From NCBI GenBank assembly GCA_963795265.1, contig CAWCHF010000014.1, forward strand, positions 77,461 through 141,460: a DNA stretch of 64,000 nt, given 5' to 3'. The notes below the pieces were generated by a model, which had not been told where the DNA came from, did not search any database, and saw only the letters and a program-made list of their open reading frames with translations. Of this stretch, positions 4,179 through 26,388 are shown piece by piece. Each line of letters begins with the position of its first letter. Within the stretch, counting starts at the first letter, position 1. The DNA comes from an uncultured Actinomycetota bacterium (GTDB lineage Bacteria > Actinomycetota > Actinomycetes > Streptosporangiales > Streptosporangiaceae). Position numbers and translations under genes: made by a program.

Positions 4179-4400
4179 GGCTGGACTGCTGTGCGGTGGG
4201 CTGGCTGGAAGCCCAGACATCGACCCCGGAAAGGCCTGAGGCCCATGATCATTGCAGGCCGTGGACCTCCCTCGGACCGCCTTCCCGACGCGGCAGGCTC
4301 CGTTGGCTGATCCTGGCCGACTCGCCATCCCAGGCTCTCAACCTTGCATGTACTACAGCCTTATTCTAGGTTGAAAGGTAACCTATAACAAGGAGGTGAG

Positions 4401-5686
4401 ATGGCAAAGGTTATCCGTAAGCACTGGATCAGCGAAGCCAGCCCAGGGGTGGCTCGACGCGACCGGCCATCCTGCGACTACGAAGCATACGTCCCTGACC
4501 TCCTCACTGGCCGGAAGCAGAATATTCGAAGGGAGCACGGCAGCTGACATCGCCGATGCAGAGCGCGCTATAGCCGTCTTGGACGCTCAAGCTTCTACAT
4601 TGGTCGATACAGAGGCACTTGCTCGTATCCTGCTTCGCGCAGAAGCTGTCGCTTCCTCGCGCATCGAAGGACTAGAGGTCGGCGCACGTCGTCTGCTCAG
4701 AGCAGAAGCAGCCATTGACATGGGCGAACAGCCAACCGACGTCACCGCTGCCGAAGTCCTGGGGAACATCGAAGCGATGGCATCTGCGGTCCAGCAGATC
4801 GCGCCGGGAGACCCGATCACCGTCAACATACTTCTTGACTTTCACAAGCGGCTCCTCAGCGGTACCAGGCTGGAGACCTACGCGGGTCGTACTTCGGTCT
4901 GAGCAGAACTGGATAGGAGGTAGCAACTACAACCCCTGCTCGGCAACATTCATCCCGCCCCCGCCGGAATGCGTCCCTGACTTGCTCGAGGACCTTTTCA
5001 GCTTCTGCAACGACGACGCGCTGCCTGCCGTTGCGCAGGCGGCAATGGCGCATTCGCAATTCGAGACGATCCATCCCTTCGTTGACGGCAATGGCCGAAC
5101 AGGTCGGGCTCTGATTCACTTGATCCTCCGCCGACGTGGCTTGGCAACCCGCGTGCTGCCACCGGTTTCGCTCGTCCTTGCAACGTGGGCAAAGGACTAT
5201 GTAGATGGGTTGCAGGCAACCAGGTATAGAGGCCCGGCATCGTCGACTGCCGCGCGGAATGGGATTAATCTCTGGGTCGCTAGATTCGCTGCCGCCTGCC
5301 TCCGTGCTGTCGCTGACGCATCCGACTTCGAGAGACGATCACAATTGCTTCAGGAGGAGTGGCGAGAGAAGCTCGGCTCAGTCCGAGCTAACTCGGCTAC
5401 CGATCTGCTCCTGCGCGCCTTGCCTGGAGCGCCGCTCCTCACAGTCAAGTCTGCAACGACGCTCATCGGACGCACGTTCCCGGCCGCCAATGATGCGATT
5501 AAGAGACTTGCAGACGCAGGGATACTGCGTCCAATCAGTTTGGGCACCCGAAACCGAGCCTTCGAAGCTACGGCGGTGATTGAGGCATTCACTGCCCTCG
5601 AACGGCAACTCGCTAGCCCCGAAGGGAATACTCTGAGCAGCGAGCCGTCGCGCCGGGTGCCATACCGACAAGTGTCCGTCAACTAG
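4401..5686 (+). pseudogene. Fic/DOC family protein (AMPylase-type), two frameshifts as sequenced
   Basis: AAGGAGG RBS at 4391 and ATG at 4401. Canonical Fic motif HPFVDGNGRTGRAL. Frame breaks near 4515 and 4887 (LETYAG|VLRSEQNWIGG). About 53-58% GC, lower than the flanks. Confidence 0.8.
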
Positions 5687-6284: not shown

Positions 6285-6868
6285 CTACCAGCGAGATTGG
6301 GCCGGCAGCCGTGCCTGACCTGGGCCAGGCCAGTAGGTACTTGCCGGGCGGTGAATGCGCTCGAGTGCTTCGCGGAGGTCGTCGGGTAGCGGGTCGGCGG
6401 CGGTGAAGGCGTGCGGCCCGGCCTGGATCTGAATGGTCCGGTAGCGGCGGGCGGTCTTGACGAACTTGCGGATCGACCAGCCGGTTCGTGCCTCGATCCA
6501 GCGGCTGACCGCCAGGGCGGCGAACACGATGGTCAGGTGCGCTTCGATCGAGTCGCGGGTGCGGTGGTAGATCGGCCGGGCCTGCAGGTCGCTCTTGGCC
6601 ATCCGGAATGACTTCTCGATCCGGAAGAGCTGGTGGTAGGCGCCGATCACGAACTCCGCGGTCACCGGGATGCCGTCCGGGCAGGCCCGCAGGTTGGGGA
6701 CGTAAGCCTTTCAGCCCGGCCAGCGCCCGGCCCCTGGCCGCGAGGTCGCGGTTGCTGGTCCGGTTGCCGCCGGACAGCTTGACGAACCGGTTGCGTTCCA
6801 GGTGCAGCAGCTGCTGATCTCGCGGCGAGCCCGCACCGGCCCGCGCGAGCGCATCCGCACGCGCCACG
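6285..6868 (-). mobile_element. IS1634-family (IS4 superfamily) transposase, C-terminal fragment only, frameshifted
   Basis: ...NRFVKLSGGNRTSNRDLAARGRALAGLKG / YVPNLRACPDGIPVTAEFVIGAYHQLFRIEKSFRMAKSDLQARPIYHRTRDSIEAHLTIVFAALAVSRWIE... The N-terminal two-thirds are absent. Confidence 0.7.
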
Positions 6869-7572: not shown

Positions 7573-8250
7573 ATGACCGGTCGGGCGGATCGGTGGATCC
7601 GGCGCACGACCATCGGGTGCGTGGGGATGCTCGCGCTGATCGCCGGGACCGTCTCCTACTTGCACATGCACCTGCTGGTGGAGCTGCACGGCCAGCCCGG
7701 CTGGGTTGCGGCGCTGACGCCGCTGTCCGTGGACGGGATGATCGTGGCCGCGTCGACGACCCTGCTCGCCGACTCGCGTGTCGGCGGGCGGGGTGGGTTC
7801 TTGCCGTGGACACTGCTTGTGGCGGGCAGCGCCGCGAGCCTGGCCGCGAACGTGGCGGTCGCCGAGCCCACGGCAACTGGACGGGTGATCGCCGCCTGGC
7901 CGTCGTACGCGTTGATCGCCGCATATGAGCTCCTTATGCGCCAGGTCCGCAAGGCGTCGGAGAACGCTGTGGCCGGGCAGCGGTCAAGGAGGTCACTTGG
8001 CGCGGTGACTGCCAGTGGCGGCAAGCCGGGTTCTGCAAGCCGGGCCGCGGCACCCGAACGCAGGGCATCGGGGCGGGACTTGCGGCTGGAAGCGTGGCAG
8101 TGGGCTCAGGACAACCGGGCTGCCGATGGCTCGCTTCCCTCGGGTCGGGACATCGGGACCAGATACGGCCGCCACGAACGGTGGGGGCGGATGGTCAAGC
8201 GCTCGGGCCTGGTCGGCGATCTAAGCGAGATCAGCTCGACACGTAGCTAG
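7573..8250 (+). CDS. DUF2637-family membrane protein (intact copy)
   Basis: 225-aa ORF. TM segments IGCVGMLALIAGTVSYLHMH, VAALTPLSVDGMIVAAS and LLVAGSAASLAANVAV. C-terminal HTH-like ...LPSGRDIGTRYGRHERWGRMVKRSG. Confidence 0.75.
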   Translation: MTGRADRWIRRTTIGCVGMLALIAGTVSYLHMHLLVELHGQPGWVAALTPLSVDGMIVAASTTLLADSRVGGRGGFLPWTLLVAGSAASLAANVAVAEPTATGRVIAAWPSYALIAAYELLMRQVRKASENAVAGQRSRRSLGAVTASGGKPGSASRAAAPERRASGRDLRLEAWQWAQDNRAADGSLPSGRDIGTRYGRHERWGRMVKRSGLVGDLSEISSTRS

Positions 8251-11317: not shown

Positions 11318-11408
11318 ATGATCTTCGATGGGGCCTCGGCGGTAAGGGGGGAGCGCACCCATAAGCCAATGCGTACTGACCGGTGAGTTCGCGCTCGGCG
11401 GTGCGCGC
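11318..11408 (+). repeat. recombinase-tail repeat, copy C
   Basis: ATGATCTTCGATGGGGCC...GGGGAGCGCACCCATAAGCCAATGCGTACTGACCGGTGAGTTCGCGCTCGGCGGTGCGCGC aligns to copies B and D. No recombinase body upstream. Confidence 0.65.
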
Positions 11409-12092
11409 TTGACCGGGCGGACCGATGGGTGGATTCGGTGGACAACGATCGGGTGCGTCGGCTTCCTGGCGCTGATCGCCGGCACCGCGTAGTATCTGCA
11501 TATGCACCTGCTGGTTGAGCTGCACGGGCAGCCGGGCTGGCTAGCGGCGCTGACGCCACTATCAGTAGACGGGATGATCGTGGCAGCGTCGACGACGCTG
11601 TCGGCCGACTCGCGTAGCGGCGGCCGAACCGGGTTCCTGCCCTGGGCGTTGCTTGTGGCGGGCAGCGCGTCAAGCCTGGCGGCAAACGTTGCGGTTAGCG
11701 GAGCCGACGGTCACTGGCCGCATCATCGCGGCCTGGCCGTCGTTTTCGCTGATCGCCGCATTCGAGTTGCTGATGCGCCAGGTCAGGCGCGCTGCTGCGA
11801 CACCTTCGCCCACAAAGTCATCGCGGCGGCCCGTCCAGGTTCTGGGCGCGGTCCCGGTCGCCGGCAGCGGACCTGCCAGAACAGGCTGTCCTGTCGCGAG
11901 GTACTACCACGCCTCGGCGCGGGACGTCCGGGACAAAATGCCCGGCTGGAGGCGTGGCTGTGGGCTCGGGACAACCGGGCAGAGGACGGCGCGCTTCCCT
12001 CAGGCCGGGAAATCGGCACCAGGCATGGTCGCCACGAGCGGTGGGGACGGATGGTCAAGCAATCCGGGCTGGCCCGCGAGATTGGTGCGTAG
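11409..12092 (+). pseudogene. DUF2637-family gene, degraded copy (TTG start, in-frame TAG at 11490-11492, two frameshifts)
   Basis: Collinear with 7573..8250: ...WIRWTTIGCVGFLALIAGTA*YLHMHLLVELHGQPGW... The frame leaves near 11700 (correct frame is in ORF 11653..12138) and returns near 11940. Confidence 0.75.
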
Positions 12093-12163
12093 GGTCGGCA
12101 GGACTGACCCGCGCGGTTGTGGGATGCTGCCGGGATGATCGTGCGGTGGTTGCTGGTGTGCGC

Positions 12164-12801
12164 ATGAGCTCGGACGTGCCTGTCCGGGTGATGCGCGGGG
12201 ACCTGCCCGGTGACCTTGCCGATGCCTTTGCGCGCTCAAGTCGAATCGCCTGGGACATCGAGACCACGGGCTTGGACTGGCGGCAGGAAAGGATCGGGAC
12301 TTGCCAGCTGTTCTCGGAGACCGTGGGCGTGGCCGTGATCGGTATCGGCCAGGACAGGCCCGCTCGGCCTGGCGGCCCTCCTTGAGGACAGCTCAGTTGA
12401 AAAGGTCTTTCATCACGCGCCATTCGATTTGCGTTTCATGGCTAGCGCCTGGCGAGTGTCACCCACCGCCATTCGGTGCACGAAGGTCTGCTTCCAAGAT
12501 CCTTAATCCGGAGGCGCCGAATGAGCACCGACAGCCTCCAACGTCTTGTCGGCAGGTCTCTTGAGGTCAAGTTCCCCAAAGGCGCAGTTCGCGTGAGCGA
12601 TTGGTCGGCGGCAGACCTGACTGATGAGCAGATCCGCTATGCGGCGAACGATGTCGTGCACCTCCCGCGCTCTCCTTGACGTCATGGAGCAGGCACTCCT
12701 GGCGAGCGGTCGCGAAGACCTGTATGCCGCCTGCTGCGCGTTTCCTTCCAGCAAGGGTGACACTTGAGCTGGGTGGCTACCCCGACGTGTTCTCCTACTG
12801 A
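12164..12801 (+). pseudogene. RNase D-like 3'-5' exonuclease (DnaQ/DEDD fold), multiple frameshifts
   Basis: IAWDIETTGLDW (ExoI), KVFHHAPFDLRF (ExoII) and SDWSAADLTDEQIRYAANDVVHL (ExoIII) are read across ORFs 11954..12385, 12301..12564 and 12476..12679. Tail ...ELGGYPDVFSY* ends at 12801. Confidence 0.65.
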
Positions 12802-13629
12802 CCTTCGGCCAGCAGCTCCCACCGCTCGCTGGTGAAGAAACGGAAACCAGGAGTCGGCGCGGCCCGGAGCCGGGCTGAGCACGCGAAGATGCCACGGCGC
12901 CTCAGGGCCGTTGACATGATCAGCGATTACATGCACCTGAGCACGCTCCATAAGGCGATGCAGATCCTCGACCAGCAGGTTGGGAACCCAGCCGATCGGG
13001 ATCAGCGGCGCTGCTGTAACGACTATTGCCAGCGGGTTGTTCGGATTCTCTGGCTCAGGGACCATGCCGAGGTCATCACCGCCATGGAGGCTTTCGAGCG
13101 CGGCGTCGACCTGATCACGGGTAACTTCTATCCGGACGCCGCTGAGGATCTTTGCAGTCCTGTGCGCATGGCGTACGCCGTGAACGAGGAACTGGCAGCT
13201 GATCCCCGCGAGGTCGATGGTCGGCTCAGGGGATAAGCTGGATTGTGTCGCCTTCCCTATGCCCCTGGGATCGTGCGATCTGTTCCCACGGACTAGGGTC
13301 GCCTTCCAGGCCGAGTCGGCTGACGTACCGCTCGTAGTCTCGGCCATAAGGGGGTCCATAGCGCGCTGCGCGAAAAGCGGGAACAGCTCGTCAGAGCGAT
13401 AACTGGCGCGCTGGTCATCGAAACCCAGAAGTCCAGGGAAGTCATGCACCGTCAGTGCATTCCGTATGTAGCTGAATCGGTAGCCCTGATCATCGCAGGA
13501 CAAGAACCCCACGGGCTCGATCGAGCGCTCGACAGGGTGCTGCCAGGCCACGACGAGCCGACCGGGCACCTCGGCGGATCGGCCTGCGGGCTTGCGCCGC
13601 GCAGTTGCTAGAACGCTATCGGCAGACAT
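12795..13629 (-). pseudogene. HIRAN-domain protein with HipA-N-terminal-like region, three frameshifts as sequenced
   Basis: N-terminal ...PVGFLSCDDQGYRFSYI...ELFPLFAQRAMDP. HIRAN-like core FLVHGVRH...LHGGDDLGMVPEPENPNNPLAIVV...IGWVPNLLVEDL...VNGPEAPWHLRVL. Alternative-frame tail ...PGFRFFTSERWELLAEGQ* ends at 12795. Start overlaps the upstream kinase stop by 14 nt. Confidence 0.6.
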
Positions 13630-14533
13630 CGAGCACCCTCCTCCGATTCACCTCAAGCACTCTGCCTGCAAAGGTACGCGCGGCCTCTGACATTCGGGGC
13701 ACCCTGACCAGGACGCGCCTTATATCATCGCCGCTGACCTCCTGTAGCTGGGAAATCCAGTGGTCGTGAGCGGGTGGCGAGGCCATATCCAAAGCAATCT
13801 TGGCTGCGTCGACTAGCCCTGGGCGCCCTTCCAGCCGATTCGCCCGCCCCCTTAGGCACCAGCCCTCCACGCCGGCCTCTCCGAACCGAGGAGCTGATCA
13901 AGCCGGGCATCACGCTCGCCGAAGGCAAGGGCGCTGGCATGGTCGTACGAGCCGCTGAGCAACGACGGCCCGCTCACGCCGGACGTTCCTGGGACCAAGA
14001 CGGACCAATTATGATCATGACGATCCTGATTCGCAATCCAGGCATCAAATACTATATAACCAGCAAATATATCGAAGGCCGTCGCGTTAAACGGCAGATT
14101 GTAGCTGGGAGGCAGCCCGCATCCCGTAAGCGCGTCTTTGATGTTGGATAGCGAGTGACCGGGGTGATCCTTGCCGGCCTCTTTGTGGACGTAGCCCGGT
14201 GCGTTGACAGTCTCGAGGAGTGCCTGACCAGGCTGCATCTGATACTCGTCGGGGCGCAGATTAGCTGATATGCAGCCGCGCAGGCCGTGCCAGACAGCGA
14301 GCTCGACGCGGGCAGCGGGAATGCCCAGTGCCTCGGCCAGATGCGAAGCAGCCTTCTCAGCCCAGTCCTCGCCATGAACATGACCGTTCTTGACGGTTAC
14401 GGTTTTGAGCAGCCAGCGGACCTTGTTGCCAGGTTCCTCGAGCCATACCTTGGTCTTCAGCACCTGACGTTTCTTCGTCAGTGACATCCCAGGCAGTGAC
14501 GTCAATCTTCGGGAACGGCAGATCCTCGGGCAC
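13616..14533 (-). pseudogene. HipA-like Ser/Thr kinase (C-terminal kinase core only), two frameshifts as sequenced
   Basis: GEDWAEKAASHLAEALGIPAARVELA and the catalytic-type motif FDAWIANQDRHDHNW. N-terminal VPEDLPFPKIDVTAWDV is in another frame (GTG 14533). C-terminal part lies in ORF 13616..13870. Confidence 0.65.
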
Positions 14534-15025
14534 GACGAAAGCCTACGGGCTCATCGCCGCCGGTTCTCCTCTGGGCCGTGCCCTGCGATGCACGTCCGCC
14601 AAGGCCAGTTCCCGGTGGCGGCGTCGCGGAGGTGAAGCAGGGTGGCAGGACCGCGCATCACCGGGAACACCGCCCGGCGGTGTGTTCGCTGGGCGAGACG
14701 CTGGCGATCTATTGGGGGAGGCACGGGTCGGCTGCACATGTTTAGCGCGGTGCCGGCCTGGTTCCGGTTCGTGAGGTAAAGGCATGCCACGACACTGGCC
14801 ATGCTGGCCGAAAGCTTCGAGGTGGTGGGCGGGTGCCAGGACCGGGTGCTGGCCGACCGGGATGGGCTGCCAGAAGGGCGACCGGATGGGCTGCACGAAG
14901 GCCGGTGTCGTTGCGAATGTGGGATCGCCCGCTCGGGACCATGTCCGGTCCGCGACCACCTACGGATTCCGGCCGGACTTCTGCGAGGCTCATGCCCCGG
15001 AATCCAAGAGTAAAGGCCTTTCAAG

Positions 15026-16296
15026 CTAATTCTGGCCGGACGCTGCAGCGCTTCGTGGCGGAGGTGGTCGTCCTGTCCGACGAAAGCTTTGAACGGTAAC
15101 TAGCCGGTAAGCGTCCCCGGACTTGCGCGTTTCGATTTCAATATGGAAGTCGCGTTTGAGATGGGCTAGCTGCCGCTCGAACGCCGGGACGTCGACGGGC
15201 GCAGGAAGGCGGCGCAGGATCTGCTCCATGGTCAGGAAGCCTGCGTGTTCGCGGAGAACCTTGTAGATCGGGTCGTGTGCCGCCGGGAGCTTGCTTGACG
15301 GCGTAACGAGTGTCGCCCGTGTGATCCAGAGCAATCCGGATCTGCTGGCCGATCGCCCGAGCCATGGGCGGCGGGGATGTCATTGCCTATCTGCCGGTAG
15401 TTCGAGGGTTTTGCGGCCAGTGAACAACCACCTGTACTCGCGGTCGTCCCACCCTTGGAGCCTGGCGACCATCTCGCAGGTGAGCTTGGGCAGCAGATCT
15501 GCAGGATCACTCGCCGAGGGGGCTGCGTCCGCGACTCCGAGCGCGTCCACACCCATCGCCCGCCAGGCGCGCTTGGCGCGGGTGGGGCCGAGGTCGGCAC
15601 CACCGTGTTTCTTCGAGCCGCCGACGATAGTGGGGGCGATGTCGTTAAGCTTTTCCCAGCCCACGCGATCGCACCGGGCCAGCCGTTGGTCGCCATCAGG
15701 TAGCGCAGCGTTTCCCCGACCGTGGGAGGTTCGCCCTGGCGTTTCGGCCAGGTGAAGTGCGCAAGGTCATCGGGGCACATGGCGATGAGCACGAACCGGG
15801 GCCGCAGCTGCGGTACGCCGTAGTCGAAAACGTGGAGCAGCTGCCATTCAGCTGCGGTAGCCCAGCTCGGCCAAGCGGTCCAGTACATGCTGGCGGTAGG
15901 CGGCAAAGCGGGGCAGCGGAGAGGGCCGCGGACGTTCTCTAGGAGCAGCGCACGAGGGCCGATGACACTGCACAATTCGACAGCCCAGGCAAACAGGTCG
16001 CGCTCGTCAGTCGCGCCTAGCTGTCGGCCAGCGATCGTAAACGGCGGGCAAGGCACGCCGCCCGCGAGCAAGTCAATACCGGCGTAGGCGACGGGGTCCC
16101 AGACGTCGACGCTGGCGACGTCCCCTTGGGCAACTTTCCAAGAGGGCCGATTGTGCCTGAGGGTGGCGCATGCGTTCGGGTCTAGTTCGATGCACAGCTC
16201 ATGCTCGAAGCCGGCCAGCTCAAGCCCGAGCGACTGCCCGCCTGCCCCGGCGCAAATCTCTACCACTCGGTACAACGTGATCGCCTCCGTGACCAA
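15026..16296 (-). pseudogene. DNA (cytosine-5)-methyltransferase, M.NaeI-like, at least 5 frameshifts
   Basis: Motif I EICAGAGG, motif IV GGVPCPPFTIAG, motif VI ENVRG, motif VIII QLRPRFVLIA. The block TIVGGSKKHGGADLGPTRAKRAW (ORF 15380..15664) and motif X YRQIGN...PPPMARAIG lie in other frames. Confidence 0.75.
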
Positions 16297-16442
16297 CGGC
16301 GGGCGGCTCGACGCCCATATGCAGAATCATGCCGGAACACTGCCATCGGATGGCGGACCCCCAGCGCATTTGGAAGGTGTGTTCGAAGGCGGCCTAAGCT
16401 GGCTGCCTGACATCGGGCAGTACTGGCGCTGGCTCCACGGGA

Positions 16443-17280
16443 TCATCGGGCTGCGCGACAACCCATTCGCGGCCATCGAGCGTCACCGAAGGCAGCCCCA
16501 TGATCGGGCCTCTTCCGGGCTAGCCGTACACTCACTGACTCACCGGGTCCGGGTACCGGTATCGCCAGTGCCTGCGCGATCCGCCGGTGACTGTCGTACT
16601 GGCCGAGGATCACGATCCCCTCCGGGCGCAGGCTGGTCCGGGATCCGCCGTTGCCCCGAACCCGTTTCATGTAGTCCTCCTGCTCAGCCACGGTCGCAAC
16701 AACGGTCCGGCTGATGAGGCGCCGCTGCGCTAGCCGGAACAGCATGTCCACCCGCCTCGTCCCGCTGGGACACCCGAAGATCGCCTGTACATCTGTGGGC
16801 GGTATCCGGAGCAGCGCGTTCTCCGGAAGTGCGCGGTAGTGATAGATCCAGGTGACTTCTGCCCTGCCTGCCGCCGACAGGCGTCGCTTGAGATCCCGGT
16901 TTCCCCGCGAGCTAGTCAGGAGGTGATCTGCGGGCGCGAACAAGGCCCAGAGACCATCTGCCCTGATCATCGCTAGCCCACAGCCCGAGAAGGATCTGTC
17001 CCACAGCTTCGGGAGGGATCATCCAGTCGGCCAGGCCCTGCGAGTACTTGCAGTCAACGTCGTGCCCGCAGATGGCGAAATCCATCGCCGTCGCCGTCGG
17101 CGAAGCCGAACTCGCGCTGCAGGTTGATCTCCCCAGGGTGCCGAAATGAGTCTTCTCGGTCTTGTAAAGCTGATCCCAGCGGTACCTCCCGGTGTGCTGG
17201 CCATCGAGAAGCATGTCGTAGGTGCGGCGCAACACCCTGGCGACTTTCGATCCGTCTGGATCATGAGCAAGTGAGCTCAT
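16443..17280 (-). pseudogene. NaeI-family type II restriction endonuclease, frameshifted
   Basis: TGRYRWDQLYKTEKTHFGTL, DVDCKYSQGLADWMIPPEAVGQILLGLWASDD, NRDLKRRLSAAGRAEV and VATVAEQEDYMKRVRGNGGSRTSLRPEGIVILG closely parallel R.NaeI. Split over ORFs 16912..17280 and 16443..16970 with an internal out-of-frame patch. Confidence 0.75.
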
Positions 17281-18521: not shown

Positions 18522-19350
18522 TCATGCTGCAAATCGAGATGGCCGCCGACCGGACCGCGTGGCCCAGCGCCGAATGGCGGCACCGCTCCGAGTGCGGCCG
18601 GAGACGCGCTCGAGACGGCCCATCATGTAGCGATCCCAGCGATCACCGCCGGAATCCGAGAATCGGGCAATACAGAAGAACTGGGTCGGGGCCTGTCCGC
18701 CTGAGTCTCTGGGTTTCAGCGTCAGGTCGCAAGTCTCACCTGCGCTGAGCATTGCGACTGGCTTCCCGCTGTCGGCGAAGATGCCGCGTGTGACCTTGTC
18801 CTCGATCCTCACTGCGACCGCGTATATGTGCTGTGAGCTGCCGTTGAAAACCCGAGCATTCTCGAGCCGGTCACCGAGAAGAGTCACCCGCACGCTCATC
18901 GCCTGTGCATGCCGCCCGGCTGGCTCCAGCAGGCCCATCATGTACCGATGCCAGCGGTATCCGTTTGAGTCCGAGAACTGCGCTACGCAGACGTAGGATC
19001 TCGGCTCTGGCGAACTAGGGTCCTGGCGCTTCAGCCTGAACTCACGTGTCTCGCCGGCATGCATCAGGTCGACGAGCCGTCCGCTGTCGGCGAAGACAAC
19101 GCCCGTGACCTTGTCCTGAATGACCACATTGATCATGTAGATGTTCTCGGAACTGCCATTCAGCACGCTGGGCGGCCTCGATCTGGTCACCAGCCAGAGC
19201 CACGCTGACGTTCTTGGCCTGCATCCGGCGGCGGTCATCGTCGGCCAAGCGGCCGCGCTCGACCTGGCGCCGCATCGTGAGGGCGGTAAATCCGAGAGCG
19301 CCGACGGTCCCCACTGCGCCGACCCAGGTCGCAAGATCACCGATTTCCAT
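18522..19350 (-). pseudogene. N-terminally anchored membrane protein carrying two tandem ~95-aa repeats of an uncharacterised domain, one frameshift near 19160
   Basis: MEIGDLATWVGAVGTVGALGFTALTM (TM segment, ORF 19042..19350). Repeat 1 is NVSVALAGDQIEAAQRVLNGSSENIYMINVVIQDKVTGVVFADSG...FSDSNGYRWHRYMMGLLE. Repeat 2 is SVRVTLLGDRLENARVFNGSSQHIYAVAVRIEDKVTRGIFADSG...FSDSGGDRWDRYMMGRLE. Confidence 0.55.
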
Positions 19351-19496
19351 CTAACGTACATTCCCCCGGCCGCGCAGGGCTGCCGCCGTCTTCGAGCACG
19401 CTGTATATCCCAGACTCAAGTCAAGGAGGAGACGCAATTACGACGCGCGCAAGAAACTGCCGGTTGACCCGGCATCTCCGGGCGGGCTGTCTCTTG

Positions 19497-19607: not shown

Positions 19608-20766
19608 TCAGGGCTGCGAGAGTTGGTCGGCAAGTCGCCTGGCTGCCCAGTTCCAGTCGATGCGCTCCTGCTCGAGCCGGACGCGTTCCCCGAGGCGGTC
19701 AGTAACCAGGTCTTGGTAGAGCGCCTGTTCCTCCGCGGTGAGCCAGTCCAGCCGGGAGATGGCGGGCGAAGCTTCGCCGACCCATCGGTCACGATGCGCT
19801 AGCAGCGTCTCCCGGTCCATGAGCAGCGACCGGGTGCTGGGTAGCCAGGCGCGCAGCTGATTCAGGATCGCGAAGCCATGGGTGTCGAGATCACCCCAGT
19901 AGATGACGTCCGCGTCGGCCAGCCAGGGCAGGGCACCGACGCGATCAACTTCAAAGCCCTTGCCCCAGAACGCGACCCCGTCGCGCGGGACCGGAGCGCT
20001 GAGGAACGTGATCTCGTTCTCGATGACCAGTGCTCGCTTCGCCTTGACAGGCAGCGCGGCCAGCTCGGCCACCCTGACCGTGAGATCGGACAGCCCTGAG
20101 GCAATCCCCAGCGAGGGATCGGGCCGGATCCGCAGCGTGTCGGGCTTGGTGCGCAAACCCAGTGCGGTGAGAAAGCCGGATGCGGTCGAGGAAACGCCGA
20201 GCAATTGGGCCAGTACCTGGCGGTGGCGCTCCACGAACTTCGTGTCAACTCCTGGGGCGGTGATCTCCCGCAGGTAGTGTCCGGAGCCTCGTGCGGCGAT
20301 CAGCCAGTCATAAGCGGACAAGAGGGCTGGCCACGATGCGCTGACCTCGAGCGCCCGCAGGGGATTTGCCGTAACCCACGCCGCGACGGCTGGCTCGGCG
20401 GCGACGGTGGATAGCACGGCACGGTAGGCCTTGACGTCCTCGGCGACCCCAATCAGCGCGATCGCCTGCTCGTATGACTCGATAACCGCGCGGCTCGGCA
20501 GCTCGTTACGGCCGATCAGCCGACCGCCGACTGGCGAGTAGCGGAGCGTGTACCGGAGCATTTTCGCGGCTGCCGGCCTCGAGTGCCGCGACCCACACGC
20601 GGACCGCCTCGATATCATCACCAATCCTGCCAGGTCGCGGCCCGCGCAGCGGCATGTTTATGACCGGGAACGGCGACGCCGTGGCCAGCGCGGTCAGGAT
20701 CGAGCCGTCATCCCAGCGTCTGCGCACCCGGGCGCGGATGTCCGAAGCCGTTGTCCAGGCGGTCAT
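19608..20766 (-). CDS. jetD: Wadjet JetD (DUF3322 plus Toprim-like DUF2220), single frameshift near 20570 as sequenced
   Basis: ORF 20506..20766 (N-terminal ...RRRWDDGSIL...VRVWVAALEAGS) joins ORF 19608..20624 (...KMLRYTLRYSPVGGRLIGRNELP...). Toprim-type motifs VIENEITFL and IYWGDLDTHGFAIL. 4-nt overlap with jetC. Confidence 0.85.
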
Positions 20767-23700
20767 GCGAGGTGACCAGCCTGATGTTCGCGAAACTCCT
20801 CGATCGTCAGAGTCTGCAGCCGTGAGTAGTTCCCGGCGGGATTGTCGACGAACCCGATGGCGCGGACATACGGCTCAATCACGTGCACCTTCTGAAGCGG
20901 AGTGACGATCAGCAACTGCAAGCCCAGCCGCGCGAACAAGTCGAGCGCGTAGCGGGTCGACACGTCCGAGCCGCGGCCGAATGCTTCATCGATCACGGCG
21001 AAACGGAAGTCACGAGATTTCTCGACCCCCCATTCGAGCCCGAACTGATACGCCAGCGAGGCAGCAAGGATCGTGTAAGCCAGCTTCTCCTTCTGCCCGC
21101 CCGACTTGCCATCGGAGTCGCGGTAGTGCTCCCACTCCTCGTCGGTGTCGCGATCACGCTCGGACGCCGAGAAGGTGAACCAGTAGCGGACATCGGTGAC
21201 CCGCCGGGTCCAGGCACGGTCCGCGTCGGCGTGGCCCTCGCGTGCACGGAAGCGCTCGATGATCCGCTGCACGTCCAGGAACCGTTGCTCGGAATAGTGA
21301 TCATCATCCATCGACAGGGTGTCGTCGGTTGCAGCCCGCAGCTCGCTGCGGAAGTCCTGGACCTCGGTGTTCACCGTGCGCTCGGTGACAAGCAGGATGT
21401 ACCGGCCCGGGCTGTAGTCGATCGCGCCCAGCGCCTCGTTGATGCGATCCACCCTGGCATGGATCTCCTCGGCCTGGCGGCGCAGCCAGTTGTTGAACTG
21501 CGCGAGCTCACGGATGGTATTCGTGTTCAGCTGCCGCTTGAACTCGCTCTCGAAGCGCGGCAGGTCGTCGGTTGCCACCCGGTCGTGAAACGCCAGGAAC
21601 TCGCCGCGGGCCTCGACGCTCGCGTCCATCTCGGTTGTCGCCTCGGGCCAGCGGCGGCGTACCTCGCTCATGGCCTGAATCATTCGCTGGGCGTAGCCGA
21701 CAAGCTCGCGGCCGACTCGGTCTATTGCAGACTGCAGCCCGGCCGTCAGCGACTCGCCGGCGGCCGCGCAGGCTTCGGGGGACCGGGGCATGCTCTCGCC
21801 GAGCCGCTCGGTGAGCTGGTCAAAGGAAAGGCGGGCGGCGGTCAGGCGTGATGCCTCGACGGTGGCCAGAAAGCGCTGTTCCGCCGTCCGGGCCTCGGTC
21901 GCCCGCCTCAGGAGCTCCTCCTGGACGCGAACGTCACCGCTCAGCTTCTGAAAGACGGTCTGGGACTCAGCAGCGGACGCCTTGTTCTCCTCGAGTTGGC
22001 GCTCGACCTCCGCCAGCGCAGAAGATCCCGAGACGAGTCGCTGACGTTCCTCTTCCGCGGTGGCAGCCCTGCTGTCCGCCTCGACCCAGTCGACCTCGCT
22101 CCACGAACGGAAGGTCGCAAGGCCGTCCAGCGCGGAGCGCCGGCCGGTCAGGTCATCGCGGTTACCGCGGAGCCGGGCGTACTGCGCTTCTGCCTCCAGG
22201 AGCTGCTCCTGCAGCCCCGTCATATAGTCCGTCAGCGCGGCAATCTTGCGCTCGTTCATCCAGCCAAGTACCCACGAGCGCGGATCGTCGACGCGGGACC
22301 GATCGTCTTTCTCATGGCGGTCGCCTGAGCGCATCTGTCCTTCGCGGGTAACAGCCCGGTGCTCATCACGGAACTGCTCGATCGTGTTAACGCAGACAAA
22401 GTCGGCCCGGCGGATCAGCTCGTCACGCAGGTAATCCCGGAACGGGCCCCCTGCGATCTCGATTGTGTCCGCGAGCAGCAAGACTCCGCTGCCGGTTCGT
22501 GCCTGCAGCGGCACCCGACGGGCCGACACCCGCTCGTACACGAGCCTGCTGCCCGCGGTCTGGCCGCCGCTGCGCTGGTAGGTGAGCCGGTGCTCGTTCA
22601 CCCAGCGCGAGACGCGGTCGTAATGGTACTGAGGGACGAGCAGCGACAGCGCAAAGCTGCGCAGTACCCGCTCAGCCGCGCCTCGCCAGATCGCGAACTG
22701 CTCCGCAACGTCGAGCAGCTCGCCGGCAAACGGCAGCTCGCTTTCGTCGATGCCCTCATCGAGGCAGAGCATGGCGCGAATCTCAAGCTGCGCAGGGGGC
22801 AGGTTGTTCTTCCGGCTCGCCAGGCTCATCAGCTCCGCGCGGGCTTCCTCGCCGGCTTTCCGCAGTTCCTGCCGCGATGCGATCACGACCTCGAGTTCTT
22901 CCTCGACCGTCAGGAACTCGGTCTCCAGCTGCATGCGCGCGGCCGTCACGGTGCCGTCCAGCGCCGCGAATGCCGTCGAGTCGGTGACATCGGGCAGCTG
23001 AGCGGTCTGGGTGAGCGAGTCGAGATCCTGGCGCCGCTGGCGCCGCTCGGCCGCCAGCGTGCGCGCGACTCTGATCTGGACCTCGAGCTGGCTGAGCCGA
23101 TCACCTCCGGCCGCGGCGCGCTCGATAATCAGCGATTCGCGCTCGCGGACTAGTGCGGCGCAGATCTCCTGGGCTGCCGCCGCTGCCTTGGCCTGGCGCT
23201 CGCGCATGATCTTGTGCTCGGCAATTTCCTCTGTCAGCAGGCGCGCTCGCAGCTCGGCGATGAACAGGCGCACTGCGTCACGCTGCTGCTCCAACTCATC
23301 GCGCCGTCCCAGTGCTTCGTCGTAGTGCTTGCTGCTGACAACCAGAGGCTGGAGTGCTTCGAGCTGCTCGCGGGCGCGTTTGACGGCGTCGTGGGCCTTG
23401 GTGAGGTCCTCGAAGTGGGCAACGATGTCGCGCACCTTGTCCGCGGCGTCGGCTGGCTCCAGCATGTGGCTGCGGACAAACTCGTTGAGGTTGCCGACCG
23501 ATTTCATCGAAACGGTCTGGTGGAACAGTTCCATCGCCTGCTCGGATTTGATCCCGAGCAGGCGCCGGGCCCGGCGTGCGTAATCGGGGAACACGGTGTG
23601 GATCTCAGCTCCGCCTGCTCGGAGCCGCCGGCGCAGGTCCGTCAGGTCCGAGCCGAAGTCGGTGAAGTCCGTCTCGATCGACAACTGCTTCTGCGATGTC

Positions 23701-24164
23701 ACAAAGAACCGATCCGGCTGGCCGGCCCGGTCTTTCTGATGGAATACCTGAGCCAGCGTGATCGACTCATCGAAGCCGTCATTGGCGAAGACGCCGAGGA
23801 TGACCGAGTAGTGGCGCTGATCGCGAAGTCCGACCGGTCGGGACGTGCCGGTAGCCTCGACCCGCTCCGACTTGTAGTGACCCTCCACGTAGGACCGCAG
23901 GGTGCGCTCCCTCGTGTCCGCGCCCGCCGCCTTGTTATAGGCGATCCGGTGAGCCGGCAGGAGCAGCGTGCTGAGGGCATCGACCAGCGTCGACTTACCG
24001 CTGCCGATGTCGCCTGTAAGCAGTGCAGTTGCACCGCCCGCGGACAGCCGCCATACCCGCTTGTCGAAGGTCCCCCAGTTGAAGACCTCGAGTCGCTGCA
24101 GGCGATAGCCGGCCCGGCGACCTCCGGCGCCCAGCTCGATCGTGGAGAAAAGGCCATCACTCAA
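20763..24164 (-). CDS. jetC: Wadjet JetC, SMC-like ATPase
   Basis: Intact 1133-aa ORF. Walker A LTGDIGSGKSTLVDAL, long coiled-coil middle, Walker B FRFAVIDEAFGRGS. Overlaps jetB by 8 nt and jetD by 4 nt. Confidence 0.9.
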   Translation of the reverse strand: MSDGLFSTIELGAGGRRAGYRLQRLEVFNWGTFDKRVWRLSAGGATALLTGDIGSGKSTLVDALSTLLLPAHRIAYNKAAGADTRERTLRSYVEGHYKSERVEATGTSRPVGLRDQRHYSVILGVFANDGFDESITLAQVFHQKDRAGQPDRFFVTSQKQLSIETDFTDFGSDLTDLRRRLRAGGAEIHTVFPDYARRARRLLGIKSEQAMELFHQTVSMKSVGNLNEFVRSHMLEPADAADKVRDIVAHFEDLTKAHDAVKRAREQLEALQPLVVSSKHYDEALGRRDELEQQRDAVRLFIAELRARLLTEEIAEHKIMRERQAKAAAAAQEICAALVRERESLIIERAAAGGDRLSQLEVQIRVARTLAAERRQRRQDLDSLTQTAQLPDVTDSTAFAALDGTVTAARMQLETEFLTVEEELEVVIASRQELRKAGEEARAELMSLASRKNNLPPAQLEIRAMLCLDEGIDESELPFAGELLDVAEQFAIWRGAAERVLRSFALSLLVPQYHYDRVSRWVNEHRLTYQRSGGQTAGSRLVYERVSARRVPLQARTGSGVLLLADTIEIAGGPFRDYLRDELIRRADFVCVNTIEQFRDEHRAVTREGQMRSGDRHEKDDRSRVDDPRSWVLGWMNERKIAALTDYMTGLQEQLLEAEAQYARLRGNRDDLTGRRSALDGLATFRSWSEVDWVEADSRAATAEEERQRLVSGSSALAEVERQLEENKASAAESQTVFQKLSGDVRVQEELLRRATEARTAEQRFLATVEASRLTAARLSFDQLTERLGESMPRSPEACAAAGESLTAGLQSAIDRVGRELVGYAQRMIQAMSEVRRRWPEATTEMDASVEARGEFLAFHDRVATDDLPRFESEFKRQLNTNTIRELAQFNNWLRRQAEEIHARVDRINEALGAIDYSPGRYILLVTERTVNTEVQDFRSELRAATDDTLSMDDDHYSEQRFLDVQRIIERFRAREGHADADRAWTRRVTDVRYWFTFSASERDRDTDEEWEHYRDSDGKSGGQKEKLAYTILAASLAYQFGLEWGVEKSRDFRFAVIDEAFGRGSDVSTRYALDLFARLGLQLLIVTPLQKVHVIEPYVRAIGFVDNPAGNYSRLQTLTIEEFREHQAGHLA

Positions 24165-24753
24165 CGGGTGCCGCCTTGCCTGACACCGTCGAGGCGTATT
24201 CGGCGAGCTTTCCGGCGAAGTCCGACAGTGTTTGCGCGTCCACGTAAGCCTTGAGGATCCGGCGCACCTCCCACTGGTCGGACCGCCCGCGCAGCTGGCG
24301 CAGGAATCCCAAGTCGGCCGCCCGACGGATGGTGGTGTCGGCCTGATCGACCACCCGCGCCTCGTTGGTCGATTCCGTGAAGAATAGTCTCAGCATCTCA
24401 ACGATCTGATCGCGGCTCAGCACAAGCTTGCCCTCGGCGCCAGCTGTCTCGAACTCGACAAGCCGTTTGCGGAGAAGGACCAGGAGCAGGCTCAGGTTGT
24501 AGCCGAGGGTGCGGCGGTTTACAAGCCGAGGCAGCGGTTCCTCGCCGTCGGCTTCCGGCCGAGTCTGCAGATAGGCATAACCTTCGGTGTCGTGGATGAC
24601 CACGTCGACGCCGATCGCAGCAAAGTGATCACGGATCGGCGGCGCACTGCGGTCCAGGGTGGTCCATGTCGTATCGTCCTGCTCCCGGTAGACGACACCC
24701 CGCATCAGCTGGATGATCGCGGAGGCTGTGGCGTGTTCTTCGGCGGACCTCAC
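24157..24753 (-). CDS. jetB: Wadjet JetB (DUF4194, MksE-like)
   Basis: 198-aa ORF positioned between jetA and jetC with overlapping stop/start codons. Sequence IIQLMRGVVYREQDDTTW...LLLVLLRKRLVEFE... is typical of JetB. Confidence 0.8.
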   Translation of the reverse strand: MRSAEEHATASAIIQLMRGVVYREQDDTTWTTLDRSAPPIRDHFAAIGVDVVIHDTEGYAYLQTRPEADGEEPLPRLVNRRTLGYNLSLLLVLLRKRLVEFETAGAEGKLVLSRDQIVEMLRLFFTESTNEARVVDQADTTIRRAADLGFLRQLRGRSDQWEVRRILKAYVDAQTLSDFAGKLAEYASTVSGKAAPVE

Positions 24754-26177
24754 TTTCGGGTCACCGTTACCTTCGGCAGCCGTGCTCGACGGGTGCCATG
24801 ATCAGCGACGTAGTCGATGCACGTCTCATCGTGTTCGTCCACCGAGACCTCGAGATCCTCCTCAGCCAGCGCAAGGTAGCCGACAATCTCAGCGGCGCCT
24901 TGCTCGACTGGATAGGCAGCAACGACGTCGCTCAGCAACGCCGAGCCGCGCTCTGGCACTGCGGAGCGGATGTTGGCGGCAAGCCGTGCCTGGTTCACGA
25001 AGGTCTGCTCGAACAAGGCGCTCACATCCGCCTCTGTCTCGGTGGTCGGGTCCAGCAAGCTCTCGACCCGCGCGCTGGGGCGGGGGTCATACAGCGGCCG
25101 TTCGAACGGCAGGGCGATGGTGACTCCCGGCTCGTAAACTTCAAGCCCGATGGCAGGCGGAGTGTCCCGGCAGGAGAGCGCCTTGGCCTCGATCAAACGG
25201 ACGAGATCGAGGACGCGGCGATTCTCCAGCCACACCTGATCATCCAGGAAGCGGCGCAGCTGCTCTGAGATCTGACGGACGGTTCGCTGGGTACGCTCGG
25301 CGGCCTCGGACCAGTCGTGATGCACTGTGCGCAGTCGCCGGTCCGTTTCAACCTGTTCCAGCGCCTGAAGCCGGGCCAGCATGTGCGCTAGCTCGTCCTG
25401 CCTCGTCTCGGACAACAGAAAGTCATAAAACGCCCGAAAGCTTTGGCCTTGGTCAGAGCTGTCTATGTCGGCGCGGCTGTTGACAAGCTCGGCGAGCAGA
25501 TCGCCTTTGCGGCCCGCCCAGGACGCGATACGCTCGCGTATCGCGCGATCGAGACTGCGGAAGTTCTCCTCCACCTCGCGGAAATCCGACAGCAGTTCGC
25601 GGGCCGTAGACGCGAACTGCTGATAGCGGTCACGCAGCGCGGTGTCGCTGAGAACGGTTAGCTGGCCGGCCTCGACCGCAGCTATCTCCTGATTGACTTC
25701 GTCCCTGCGGCGCTGCAGTTCAGCCAGGCGGAGCTCCGGGTCGGTCTCGGTACCGTGCACGATCTGGCGCAATAGCTCAACTACCGTGTGCAGCCGCGAC
25801 TCCGTGCCGACGAATGGGCGGACGCCCAGCCCAATGACCCAGCCGTAGGCTTTCTCGAAGGCCGGAGTCGCGTCGTAATGTACCTCGTCTGACCCGAGCG
25901 GGTAGAAGCGGCGTAGCCAGCCTGCATCCGGGTGGGCCCAGTCCTCCAGATAGTCGATGGCCGACTTCGGATACCGCGCAGCGCTCGGGTCAGCCGCGTT
26001 AAGCGCATAGAGCTCGTCGTCCAGCGCCACGGCCAGAGCCGAAATGGATGTAGCACCGTGGTTACTTTCGACAAAGTAGCGGCCGAGGAAGGCCAGGATG
26101 AGCGGCGCGTTGGCGGCGCGGAGCAGCCGCCAGGCCGGATGGCGGTCGCGGAGCCGCTCGACATCACTATGGTCCAT
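24750..26177 (-). CDS. jetA: Wadjet JetA (DUF3375, MksB/kleisin-like)
   Basis: ORF 24750..26363. Likely start is ATG 26177 (MDHSDVERLRDRHPAWRLLRAANAPLILAFLGRYF...). ATGA overlap with jetB. Confidence 0.8.
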   Translation of the reverse strand: MDHSDVERLRDRHPAWRLLRAANAPLILAFLGRYFVESNHGATSISALAVALDDELYALNAADPSAARYPKSAIDYLEDWAHPDAGWLRRFYPLGSDEVHYDATPAFEKAYGWVIGLGVRPFVGTESRLHTVVELLRQIVHGTETDPELRLAELQRRRDEVNQEIAAVEAGQLTVLSDTALRDRYQQFASTARELLSDFREVEENFRSLDRAIRERIASWAGRKGDLLAELVNSRADIDSSDQGQSFRAFYDFLLSETRQDELAHMLARLQALEQVETDRRLRTVHHDWSEAAERTQRTVRQISEQLRRFLDDQVWLENRRVLDLVRLIEAKALSCRDTPPAIGLEVYEPGVTIALPFERPLYDPRPSARVESLLDPTTETEADVSALFEQTFVNQARLAANIRSAVPERGSALLSDVVAAYPVEQGAAEIVGYLALAEEDLEVSVDEHDETCIDYVADHGTRRARLPKVTVTRK

Positions 26178-26316
26178 GGGCCCTCCATGCTCAGCTGTGC
26201 TCAGCCTAAGGAGCAGCACCGACAGTGCGGGTCGATACGACGTGGGCCGTGCACCGTCACCGATGAGAGGCGGACCGCACACGCGATACCGAGATGAGTT
26301 CCGCGCGACAGAGGGT

Positions 26317-26388
26317 GGCTGACCTCCTTGACGCAGCCCGGCGCAGGTCGCGGAGCGAGTCAATAGGCCGATATGTGATGGCGGCGGG
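26317..26388 (+). repeat. recombinase-tail repeat, copy E (most diverged), upstream of jetA
   Basis: GGCTGACCTCCTTGACG...GGAGCGAGTCAATAGGCCGATATGTGATGGCGGCGGG aligns to copy D, with about 17/20 identities over GGAGCG.G.CAATAGGCC. Confidence 0.45.

What the first reader, a model, noticed from the sequence alone, without database searches (positions are those of the whole stretch)
12795..14533. HipA-like kinase translationally coupled to a HIRAN-domain partner that carries a HipA-N-terminal-like region (split-Hip architecture)
The kinase gene (13616-14533) has the HipA catalytic-type motif DAWIANQDRHDHNW but appears to lack the usual HipA N-terminal subdomain.

Its stop overlaps by 14 nt the start of a second gene (12795-13629). 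The N-terminal ~110 aa of that gene (VGFLSCDDQGYRFSYI...ELFPLFAQRAMDP.RPDY...) resemble the HipA N-terminal/coupling region. Its C-terminal half is HIRAN-like (EPENPNNPLAIVV...IGWVPNLLVEDL). HIRAN domains bind 3' DNA ends in eukaryotic HLTF.

This recalls HipBST, where the HipA N-subdomain is a separate protein (HipS). Here the order is reversed, the partner is fused to a putative DNA-end sensor, and no HipB-like HTH gene is upstream. The 490 bp at 14534-15025 is unassigned.

A kinase toxin gated by a DNA-damage or replication-intermediate sensor would be a plausible abortive-infection design.
Basis: inference. Interest (0 to 1): 0.68.

Follow-up and report, generated by a model that had tools for sequence, protein, structure and literature searches.

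The report
Broken hipIN kinase–HIRAN module (already published)
This is a frameshift-broken copy of the published hipIN module (PADLOC candidate PDC-M03), a short HipA-like kinase gene followed by a HipS-like/HIRAN partner gene and a neighbouring diDNase gene, so it is real but not new.

Summary
A HipA-family kinase gene (14533→13616, minus strand) carries DAWIANQDRHDHNW. Its stop overlaps by 14 nt the start of a second gene (13629→12795). That gene's N-terminal half is HipS/HipA-N-subdomain-like and its C-terminal half has a HIRAN fold. No HipB-like gene lies upstream.

Neither gene is an intact ORF here. Compared with intact relatives at 96% and 83% nucleotide identity, the kinase has +1 and +2 nt frameshifts and the partner has three frame-breaking insertions.

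The architecture is not novel. It is the hipIN module of Gerdes et al. 2021 (HipI kinase plus HipN, which is HipS-like plus HIRAN, with actinobacterial members). That paper also proposed the DNA-end-sensing abortive-infection idea. PADLOC lists the pair as the untested candidate PDC-M03 (E = 1.8e-106 and 4e-77).

A convergent gene overlapping the partner's 3' end by 7 nt encodes a diDNase. Its adjacency to HipA/HIRAN genes was published by Mortensen et al. 2025.

The locus lies in a low-GC stretch (~4.4–17.3 kb) where a Fic gene, a DUF2637 copy, the diDNase, hipN, hipI, a Dcm methylase and a NaeI-like endonuclease are all disrupted. An adjacent Wadjet system is intact.

Whether the frameshifts are real decay or consensus errors cannot be settled without the reads. 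Interest is low.

The parts
13616..14533 (-). hipI: short HipA-family Ser/Thr kinase gene, disrupted as sequenced (304-305 aa after frame repair)
   Evidence: Closest intact relatives are P0001 (92% aa identity) and P0002 (81%), both 304 aa. Pfam HipA_C scores 37-38 bits in intact relatives, above the cut-off. PADLOC PDC-M03A, E = 1.8e-106. hhalign places QDRHDHNW...SYDHAS on HipA TDGHAKNF...FYDIIS.
14454..14454 (-). +1 nt insertion (GAAG[A]CC) that breaks the kinase frame inside the Gly-rich loop (ETSGAE|AK)
   Evidence: DNA alignments to L001 and L002.
13880..13881 (-). +2 nt insertion that returns the kinase to its original frame; residues 26-218 are therefore out of frame with the start codon
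12795..13629 (-). hipN: two-domain partner gene (HipS-like N-terminus plus HIRAN C-terminus), disrupted as sequenced (276 aa after repair)
   Evidence: P0121 is 88% identical and 276 aa. PADLOC PDC-M03B, E = 4e-77. Frame-breaking insertions lie at about 13341-13354 (+2), about 13228-13234 (+1) and 12877 (+1). There are no in-frame stops after repair.
13222..13566 (-). HipS-like (HipA N-subdomain-1-like) domain of HipN; approximate limits
   Evidence: hhalign of A5 against HipA 1-120 gave P = 8.3e-5. The top three PDB hits of profile A5 are HipS proteins, E = 0.05-0.08. A Foldseek search with the domain model found no HipS or HipA.
12830..13210 (-). HIRAN-like C-terminal domain of HipN; approximate limits
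   Evidence: Pfam HIRAN scores 15-19 bits, below the cut-off. Many homologues carry a precomputed PF08797 hit. Foldseek top hits are 3k2y, HLTF HIRAN (4xzg, 5bnh, 6kcs, 4xzf) and Rad5 (6l8n), probability 0.63 (Rad5) to 1.0, with 0.95-1.0 for 3k2y and HLTF.
13616..13629 (-). 14-nt overlap of the hipI stop with the hipN start, preceded by GGAGGAGGG (likely translational coupling)
   Evidence: The same overlap occurs in L002-L004, L007 and L008.
12164..12801 (+). Convergent diDNase gene (DEDD 3'-5' exonuclease family, DNA_pol_A_exo1), disrupted by five +1 insertions; its 3' end overlaps hipN by 7 nt (12795-12801)
   Evidence: Indels versus L002. The orthologue P0390 hits Pfam PF01612 at 3.9e-29. 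In the PDB it hits 9qrf 'ancestor of diDNase' at 2.7e-49 and 9f7d 'diDNase'. The gene is present tail-to-tail in 19 of 33 loci and in 4 of 4 further sampled contigs.
14534..15025 (.). Unassigned spacer upstream of hipI; not part of the conserved module
   Evidence: No Pfam hit in any of six frames. It is conserved only in the near-identical L001, with 8 small indels. Homology to L002 starts at 14551. No sigma-70-like promoter match.

Best explanation
The locus is a member of the published hipIN family (PADLOC candidate PDC-M03) with its frequent third gene, a diDNase. It lies in a horizontally acquired, partly degraded defence and mobile-element island.

**Inferred mechanism (by analogy with HipBST and HipBA; nothing in this family has been tested)**
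1. hipI and hipN are co-translated through the 14-nt overlap.
2. [quoted passage not shown]
3. A signal read by the HIRAN domain, or loss of HipN, frees HipI.
4. HipI then phosphorylates an essential translation factor, by analogy an aminoacyl-tRNA synthetase. This arrests growth, either aborting phage infection or stabilising the element.

**State of this copy**
Both genes, the diDNase and most neighbouring island genes carry frameshifts. As sequenced, the copy cannot make either protein. I put about 55% on real decay and about 45% on local consensus error.
For: **Identity**
- PADLOC PDC-M03A at 1.8e-106 and PDC-M03B at 4e-77.
- The published description of hipIN matches point by point.
- Hundreds of intact homologues of both proteins exist.
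- 1156 cluster representatives match the N-domain.

**Linkage**
- The kinase lies directly upstream of hipN in 31 of 33 genome loci.
- The 14-nt overlap is conserved.

**Domains**
- HipS-like domain.
- HIRAN fold.
- Catalytic D-x-H-x-x-N and Mg-binding D aligned to HipA.
- Gly-rich loop ETSGAEAK in intact relatives.

**diDNase**
- Family assignment.
- Published adjacency to HipA and HIRAN genes.

**Disruption**
-.

**Island context**
- NaeI is split at profile position 122, and the first Dcm ORF covers only profile positions 1-192 of 324.
- The Fic gene is split.
- Wadjet JetABCD is intact.
Against: - No experiment on any hipIN module was found in the searchable literature. PDC systems are explicitly untested. 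The neutralisation, trigger and target steps are therefore all inference.
- A Foldseek search with the isolated N-domain model (pLDDT 72) found no HipS or HipA.
- Gerdes et al. report that actinobacterial HipN HIRAN domains lack most DNA-contact motifs.
- Pfam HIRAN scores are below the gathering cut-off.
- The copy in the window is frameshifted, so nothing here shows function in this organism.
Confidence: 0.85

Rival explanations
1. The organism carries an intact, working hipIN-diDNase module, and the frameshifts are consensus errors of the assembly. One way this could arise is a strain-variable or multi-copy island that was poorly polished in a long-read metagenome assembly.
For: - Nearly all differences from intact relatives are 1-nt insertions: about 11-12 frame-disrupting insertion events in hipI, hipN and the diDNase, against very few deletions. 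Bacterial mutational bias is toward deletions (established knowledge).
- After the inserted bases are removed, all three genes read full length with no in-frame stop and catalytic motifs intact.
- HipN versus L002 shows 63 synonymous against 33 non-synonymous codon differences.
- Another long-read contig (L045) shows hipN and hipI fragmented in the same way.
Against: - A 3.4-kb ORF (JetC) and the other three Wadjet genes on the same contig are intact.
- So is the DUF2637 gene at 7573-8250, inside the affected stretch.
- The second DUF2637 copy carries a TAG nonsense substitution.
- Window-branch substitutions in the kinase are 7 non-synonymous to 2 synonymous, and they hit nearly invariant residues (PPGC to PPSY).
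- A transposase remnant lies in the same stretch.
Confidence: 0.45
2. The module is a plasmid or element addiction system. It acts by post-segregational killing to stabilise the integrative element that carries it, and is not a phage-triggered abortive-infection device.
For: - Related loci sit next to relaxase and NikA-like genes, integrases and transposases.
- The window has DUF2637 genes of the kind found in actinomycete conjugative elements.
- diDNase genes are reported in AICEs.
Against: - Both families were picked up by a defence-embedding screen.
- The locus neighbours Wadjet and an R-M system.
- The two roles are not mutually exclusive.
Confidence: 0.3
3. HipN is not an antitoxin. It is a targeting subunit that brings the kinase to DNA ends or replication intermediates, where HipI phosphorylates a DNA-associated substrate rather than a tRNA synthetase.
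For: - HIRAN domains bind 3' DNA ends in HLTF (PDB hits).
- The closest solved kinase by sequence is CtkA (3akj), not HipA or HipT.
- The conserved partner diDNase acts on DNA dinucleotides.
Against: - The HipS-like domain is the part most conserved across the family. HipS is the neutralising component in HipBST.
- Actinobacterial HipN HIRAN domains lack most DNA-contact motifs.
Confidence: 0.15

Closest known systems
hipIN (HipI kinase plus HipN putative antitoxin), main clade XI of Gerdes, Baerentsen & Brodersen 2021 (PMC8262856)
   Same: A short kinase without N-subdomain-1 and with the Gly-rich loop near the N-terminus. The kinase gene comes first. [quoted passage not shown] There is no HipB. 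Actinobacterial subclades exist. The proposed DNA-end-sensing abortive-infection role is the same.
   Different: Nothing in architecture. This copy is frameshifted in both genes.
PADLOC phage defence candidate PDC-M03 (Payne et al., bioRxiv 10.1101/2024.01.29.577857)
   Same: Both proteins match the A and B models over their full length (E = 1.8e-106 and 4e-77).
   Different: PDC-M03 is defined as two genes. Here, and in 19 of 33 relatives, a diDNase gene is attached tail-to-tail.
diDNase-HipA-HIRAN gene cluster (Mortensen et al. 2025, PMC11706625)
   Same: A DEDD deoxydinucleotide-specific nuclease gene lies directly adjacent to HipA-domain and HIRAN-domain genes in actinomycete genomic islands.
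   Different: None. The diDNase copy in the window carries five +1 insertions.
HipBST (E. coli O127, H. influenzae, Legionella; PDB 7ab3, 7czo, 7vkb)
   Same: The HipA N-subdomain-1 equivalent is encoded as a separate polypeptide that neutralises a truncated kinase.
   Different: HipBST is tricistronic with an HTH protein (HipB). HipS is a stand-alone ~100-aa protein encoded upstream of the kinase. Here the order is reversed, the HipS-like domain is fused to HIRAN, and no HTH gene is present.
HipL (single-chain kinase-HipS-like-HIRAN)
   Same: The same three domains in the same order.
   Different: HipL is one polypeptide. Here two genes overlap by 14 nt, as in all intact relatives inspected. 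One relative (L015) has a deletion that fuses a truncated kinase to HipN.

Membership tests
hipIN (Gerdes et al. 2021) | Short HipA-homologous kinase (about 279-321 aa) lacking N-subdomain-1, with the Gly-rich loop near the N-terminus | tested here: met
   The repaired gene is 304-305 aa and intact relatives are 301-305 aa. ETSGAEAK lies at residues about 21-28.
hipIN (Gerdes et al. 2021) | Core Hip kinase catalytic and Mg-binding motifs | tested here: met
   hhalign aligns QDRHDHNW and SYDHAS to HipA TDGHAKNF (D309, N314) and FYDIIS (D332). HipA_C is above the cut-off in intact relatives.
hipIN (Gerdes et al. 2021) | [quoted passage not shown] | tested here: met
   Profile A5 against HipA 1-120 gave P = 8.3e-5 over 101 columns. 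The top three of 177,635 PDB sequences are HipS proteins, all in the same register, at E = 0.05-0.08. Caveat: a Foldseek search with the domain model found no HipS or HipA.
hipIN (Gerdes et al. 2021) | Partner with a C-terminal HIRAN domain | tested here: met
   Foldseek top hits are bacterial and HLTF HIRAN structures, probability 0.95-1.0. Pfam HIRAN is below the cut-off for the proteins scanned here, but many homologues carry a precomputed PF08797 hit.
hipIN (Gerdes et al. 2021) | Kinase is toxic and is neutralised by HipN | not testable with these tools
   No experimental report was found.
hipIN (Gerdes et al. 2021) | Both genes intact in this window | tested here: not met
   There are two frameshifts in hipI and three frame-breaking insertions in hipN relative to L001 and L002.
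PADLOC PDC-M03 | Adjacent genes matching the PDC-M03A and PDC-M03B models | tested here: met
   E = 1.8e-106 and 4e-77, tested on the closest intact relatives P0001 and P0121.
diDNase (Mortensen et al. 2025) | DEDD fold closely related to solved diDNases, and adjacency to HipA and HIRAN genes | tested here: met
   PDB hits 9qrf at 2.7e-49, 9f7g at 7.6e-49 and 9f7d at 2.1e-31. DIETTGL, HHAPFDL and YAANDV are present after repair. Adjacency.
diDNase (Mortensen et al. 2025) | Specific hydrolysis of DNA dinucleotides | not testable with these tools
   This is a biochemical property. NrnC-type dinucleases are also close hits.
HipBST | HipB HTH gene, then stand-alone HipS, both upstream of the kinase | tested here: not met
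   No conserved upstream gene in 33 loci. The HipS-like domain is fused to HIRAN and encoded downstream.
HipL | Kinase, HipS-like and HIRAN domains in one polypeptide | tested here: not met
   Two ORFs with a 14-nt overlap in all intact relatives inspected.

The most novel reading that the evidence does not exclude
The HIRAN domain of HipN reads short DNA with a free 3'-OH, or deoxydinucleotides. These would be released when DNA is degraded during infection or restriction. The tightly linked diDNase would clear that ligand and so set the firing threshold or reset the switch. The three genes would then form a small-DNA-fragment alarm circuit, comparable to ring nucleases in type III CRISPR. The published work leaves the diDNase-hipIN link open. 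Nothing here tests it.
Probability: 0.1. Interest if true: 0.7.

Novelty: already known. Interest (0 to 1): 0.12.

Why it matters
As a discovery it matters little. The architecture, its proposed role and even the third gene are already in the literature and in PADLOC, and this copy is broken.

The family itself remains experimentally untouched. It is also large: 1156 cluster representatives at 50% identity match the HipS-like domain.

Intact relatives in cultivable strains offer a direct route to testing three open questions:
- whether a HipS-like/HIRAN protein gates a Hip kinase;
- what triggers it;
- why a DNA-dinucleotide nuclease travels with it.

Two such strains, found, are Nocardioides sp. 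Root1257 and Arthrobacter pascens DSM 20545.

Tried and rejected
- **PDB sequence search, narrow HipN profile.** The full-length A1 profile (Neff 1.9) found nothing relevant. hhalign of A1 or A4 against HipA was not significant. Only the diversified profile A5 gave a signal.
- **Foldseek with the N-domain model alone.** It returned only antibody beta-hairpin noise. The full-length model hit only the HIRAN half.
- **Diverse N-domain alignment with locus-derived sequences.** A3 was used instead, and its top 150 hits never left the HipN family.
- **Lookup of the window's own 315-aa ORF.** It is not on record, so the source assembly could not be identified.
- **Codon-usage frame plot** to count frameshifts window-wide. 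It was too noisy to use.
- **The 490-bp upstream spacer.** I looked for a Vsr or other gene. There was no Pfam hit in six frames and no promoter-like site.
- **Supplementary tables of Gerdes et al.** The held files did not list HipI or HipN accessions or organisms, so a direct cross-check against the published members was not possible.
- **HipBST or HipL membership.** Considered and rejected; see the membership tests.
Full report
**What is in the sequence**

The window is 67.6% GC, and the stretch from 4 to 18 kb is lower at 61-65%.

A HipA-type kinase gene lies on the minus strand.
- It starts at GTG 14533 and stops at TAG 13618-13616.
- It contains FDAWIANQDRHDHNWS.

A second gene follows it.
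- Its ATG is at 13629-13627, 14 nt before the end of the kinase stop.
- It is preceded by GGAGGAGGG.
- It ends at TAG 12797-12795.

Neither gene is a continuous ORF. tblastn with intact relatives splits the kinase over frames -1, -2 and -1, and the partner over frames -2 and -3.

DNA alignments locate the breaks. The references were a short-read metagenome contig that is 96% identical (L001) and a JGI contig that is 83% identical (L002).
- Kinase: +1 nt at 14454, inside the Gly-rich-loop codons.
- Kinase: +2 nt at 13881-13880.
- Partner: an in-frame +3 near 13600.
- Partner: +2 nt within about 13341-13354, in the invariant RRPDY motif.
- Partner: +1 near 13228-13234.
- Partner: +1 at 12877.

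After the inserted bases are removed, both genes read full length with no internal stop.

**What the two proteins are**

Intact homologues are abundant.
- 310 kinase relatives, 301-305 aa; the closest are 92% and 81% identical.
- 422 partner relatives, 276-279 aa; the closest is 88% identical.

Kinase:
- Intact kinases pass the Pfam HipA_C cut-off.
- A family profile hits the HipA-like kinase CtkA in the PDB.
- hhalign places QDRHDHNW and SYDHAS on the catalytic and Mg-binding motifs of E. coli HipA.
- The Gly-rich loop ETSGAEAK sits at residues about 21-28, so N-subdomain-1 is absent.

Partner, C-terminal half:
- An AlphaFold model (pLDDT 70) matches bacterial and HLTF HIRAN structures as its top Foldseek hits. 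Probabilities are 0.95-1.0 and target-normalised TM-scores 0.5-0.7.
- Pfam HIRAN scores are below the cut-off.

Partner, N-terminal half:
- Narrow profiles gave nothing.
- A Foldseek search with the isolated domain model (pLDDT 72) also gave nothing.
- An exhaustive HMMER search showed the domain family is large, with 1156 representatives at E ≤ 0.001.
- A diversified 45-sequence profile from those hits (A5, Neff 4.1) placed three HipS proteins (7czo, 7ab3, 7ab4) as the three best of 177,635 PDB sequences. E-values were 0.05-0.08, all in the same register.
- The same profile aligned to E. coli HipA residues 4-106 with P = 8.3e-5 over 101 columns.

I take the HipS-like assignment as supported by sequence profiles but not confirmed by structure.

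**Conservation of the arrangement**

- A scan of one genome per species found 33 loci. Nearly all are Actinomycetota: Streptosporangiaceae, Mycobacterium, Frankia, Nocardioides, Kribbella, Arthrobacter, Microbacterium and others.
- The kinase lies directly upstream of the partner in 31 loci. The other two are truncated.
- The 14-nt overlap recurs in every intact contig inspected.
- No other gene is conserved upstream, so there is no HipB equivalent.
- Homology to L002 begins 18 nt upstream of the start codon. The 490-bp spacer has no Pfam match in any frame. It is not part of the module.

**A third gene**

A gene convergent with the partner overlaps its 3' end by 7 nt (12164-12801, plus strand).
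- It belongs to the DNA_pol_A_exo1 family.
- It is present tail-to-tail in 19 of 33 loci.
- It is also present in 4 of 4 further contigs chosen from its own homologue list.
- Its closest solved relatives are diDNases: 9qrf at 2.7e-49, plus 9f7g and 9f7d.
- In the window it carries five +1 insertions but no stop.

**Comparison with what is known**

- **Gerdes, Baerentsen and Brodersen 2021** described hipIN. It comprises a short HipI kinase lacking N-subdomain-1 and a downstream HipN with a HipS-like N-terminal and a HIRAN C-terminal domain. They found 14 modules, including actinobacterial subclades. They proposed that the HIRAN domain senses phage DNA ends to trigger abortive infection. They also noted that actinobacterial HipN HIRAN domains lack most DNA-contact motifs.
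- **PADLOC** models PDC-M03A and PDC-M03B match at 1.8e-106 and 4e-77. PDC systems are 145 untested candidates found by 'guilt by embedding'.
- **Mortensen et al. 2025** defined diDNases as deoxydinucleotide-specific DEDD nucleases. About a third of diDNase genes lie directly next to HipA-domain and HIRAN-domain genes in actinomycete islands. They left the functional link open.

Every element of the finding, and the extra gene I found, is therefore already published. I found no experimental work on hipIN.

**Likely mechanism (inferred)**

1. hipI and hipN are translationally coupled.
2. [quoted passage not shown]
3. A signal acting through HIRAN, or loss of HipN, releases the kinase.
4. The kinase phosphorylates an essential translation component and stops growth.

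Only the domain identities and gene linkage are shown here. The remaining steps rest on analogy.

**State and context of this copy**

Disrupted genes in the 4.4-17.3 kb stretch:
- a Fic gene split over two frames;
- a transposase remnant;
- a second DUF2637 copy with a TAG nonsense codon and indels;
- the diDNase, hipN and hipI;
- a Dcm methylase whose first ORF covers only profile positions 1-192 of 324;
- a NaeI endonuclease split at profile position 122.

Intact genes: DUF2637 at 7573-8250, and the Wadjet JetABCD system at 19608-26363, whose domains are covered end to end.

Evidence for assembly error:
- The lesions are almost all single-base insertions.
- No stops remain after repair.
- The divergence from L002 looks selected, with 63 synonymous against 33 non-synonymous codon differences.
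- Another long-read contig shows similar fragmentation.

Evidence for real decay:
- The neighbouring genes are intact.
- There is a nonsense substitution in the second DUF2637 copy.
- Window-branch substitutions in the kinase are 7 non-synonymous to 2 synonymous, at conserved positions.
- There is a transposase remnant.

I cannot decide between the two without the reads. I lean slightly toward real decay.

**Verdict**

It is an already published system in a broken copy. Interest is low.

Noticed in passing
window 19608-26363 (minus strand): An intact Wadjet anti-plasmid system. It comprises JetA (DUF3375, 537 aa), JetB (DUF4194/MksE, 198 aa), JetC (SMC-like, 1133 aa) and JetD (DUF3322 plus JetD_C, 338 aa). 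Pfam coverage is end to end for JetA, JetB and the JetD_C domain.
   Followed up: partly
window 15232-17280 (minus strand): A NaeI-like type II restriction endonuclease and a Dcm-type C5 methylase, both frameshifted. NaeI is split exactly at Pfam profile position 122 between two ORFs. The first methylase ORF covers only profile positions 1-192 of 324.
   Followed up: partly
window 7573-8250 and about 11400-12140 (plus strand): Two paralogous DUF2637-type genes, about 80% identical at the DNA level. The first is intact. The second has a TAG nonsense codon and at least one frameshift.
   Followed up: partly
window 4396-5686 (plus strand) and 6285-6665 (minus strand): A Fic/DOC protein is split over two frames, with Fic_N in one ORF and the Fic core with HPFVDGNGRTGR in the next. 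A DDE transposase C-terminal remnant also lies here. The disrupted stretch therefore begins near 4.4 kb.
   Followed up: partly
window 12118-15187 versus L001 and L002: The frame-breaking differences from intact relatives are overwhelmingly single-base insertions, and mostly lie outside long homopolymers. That is unusual for natural bacterial pseudogenes.
   Followed up: partly
L015 5569-6822 (MAG MFD04967.bin.2.167): In this relative a deletion fuses the first ~150 residues of the kinase in frame to HipN, giving a 417-aa stop-to-stop reading frame. It is a decayed or HipL-like variant.
   Followed up: no
L044 4113-6756 and L045 4073-5809: Other relatives are also damaged. In L044 an IS110-family transposase gene lies where the kinase is expected, next to hipN. 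In L045 hipN and hipI are each called as two fragments, while the diDNase is called as a single 192-aa gene.
   Followed up: no
window 18522-19361 (minus strand): A 279-aa ORF with two internal repeats of ~90 aa (…NGSS.NIY…V.I.DKVT…FADSG…AGET…RFSDS.G.RW.RYMMG.LE) and no Pfam match. It lies between the broken R-M genes and Wadjet.
   Followed up: no
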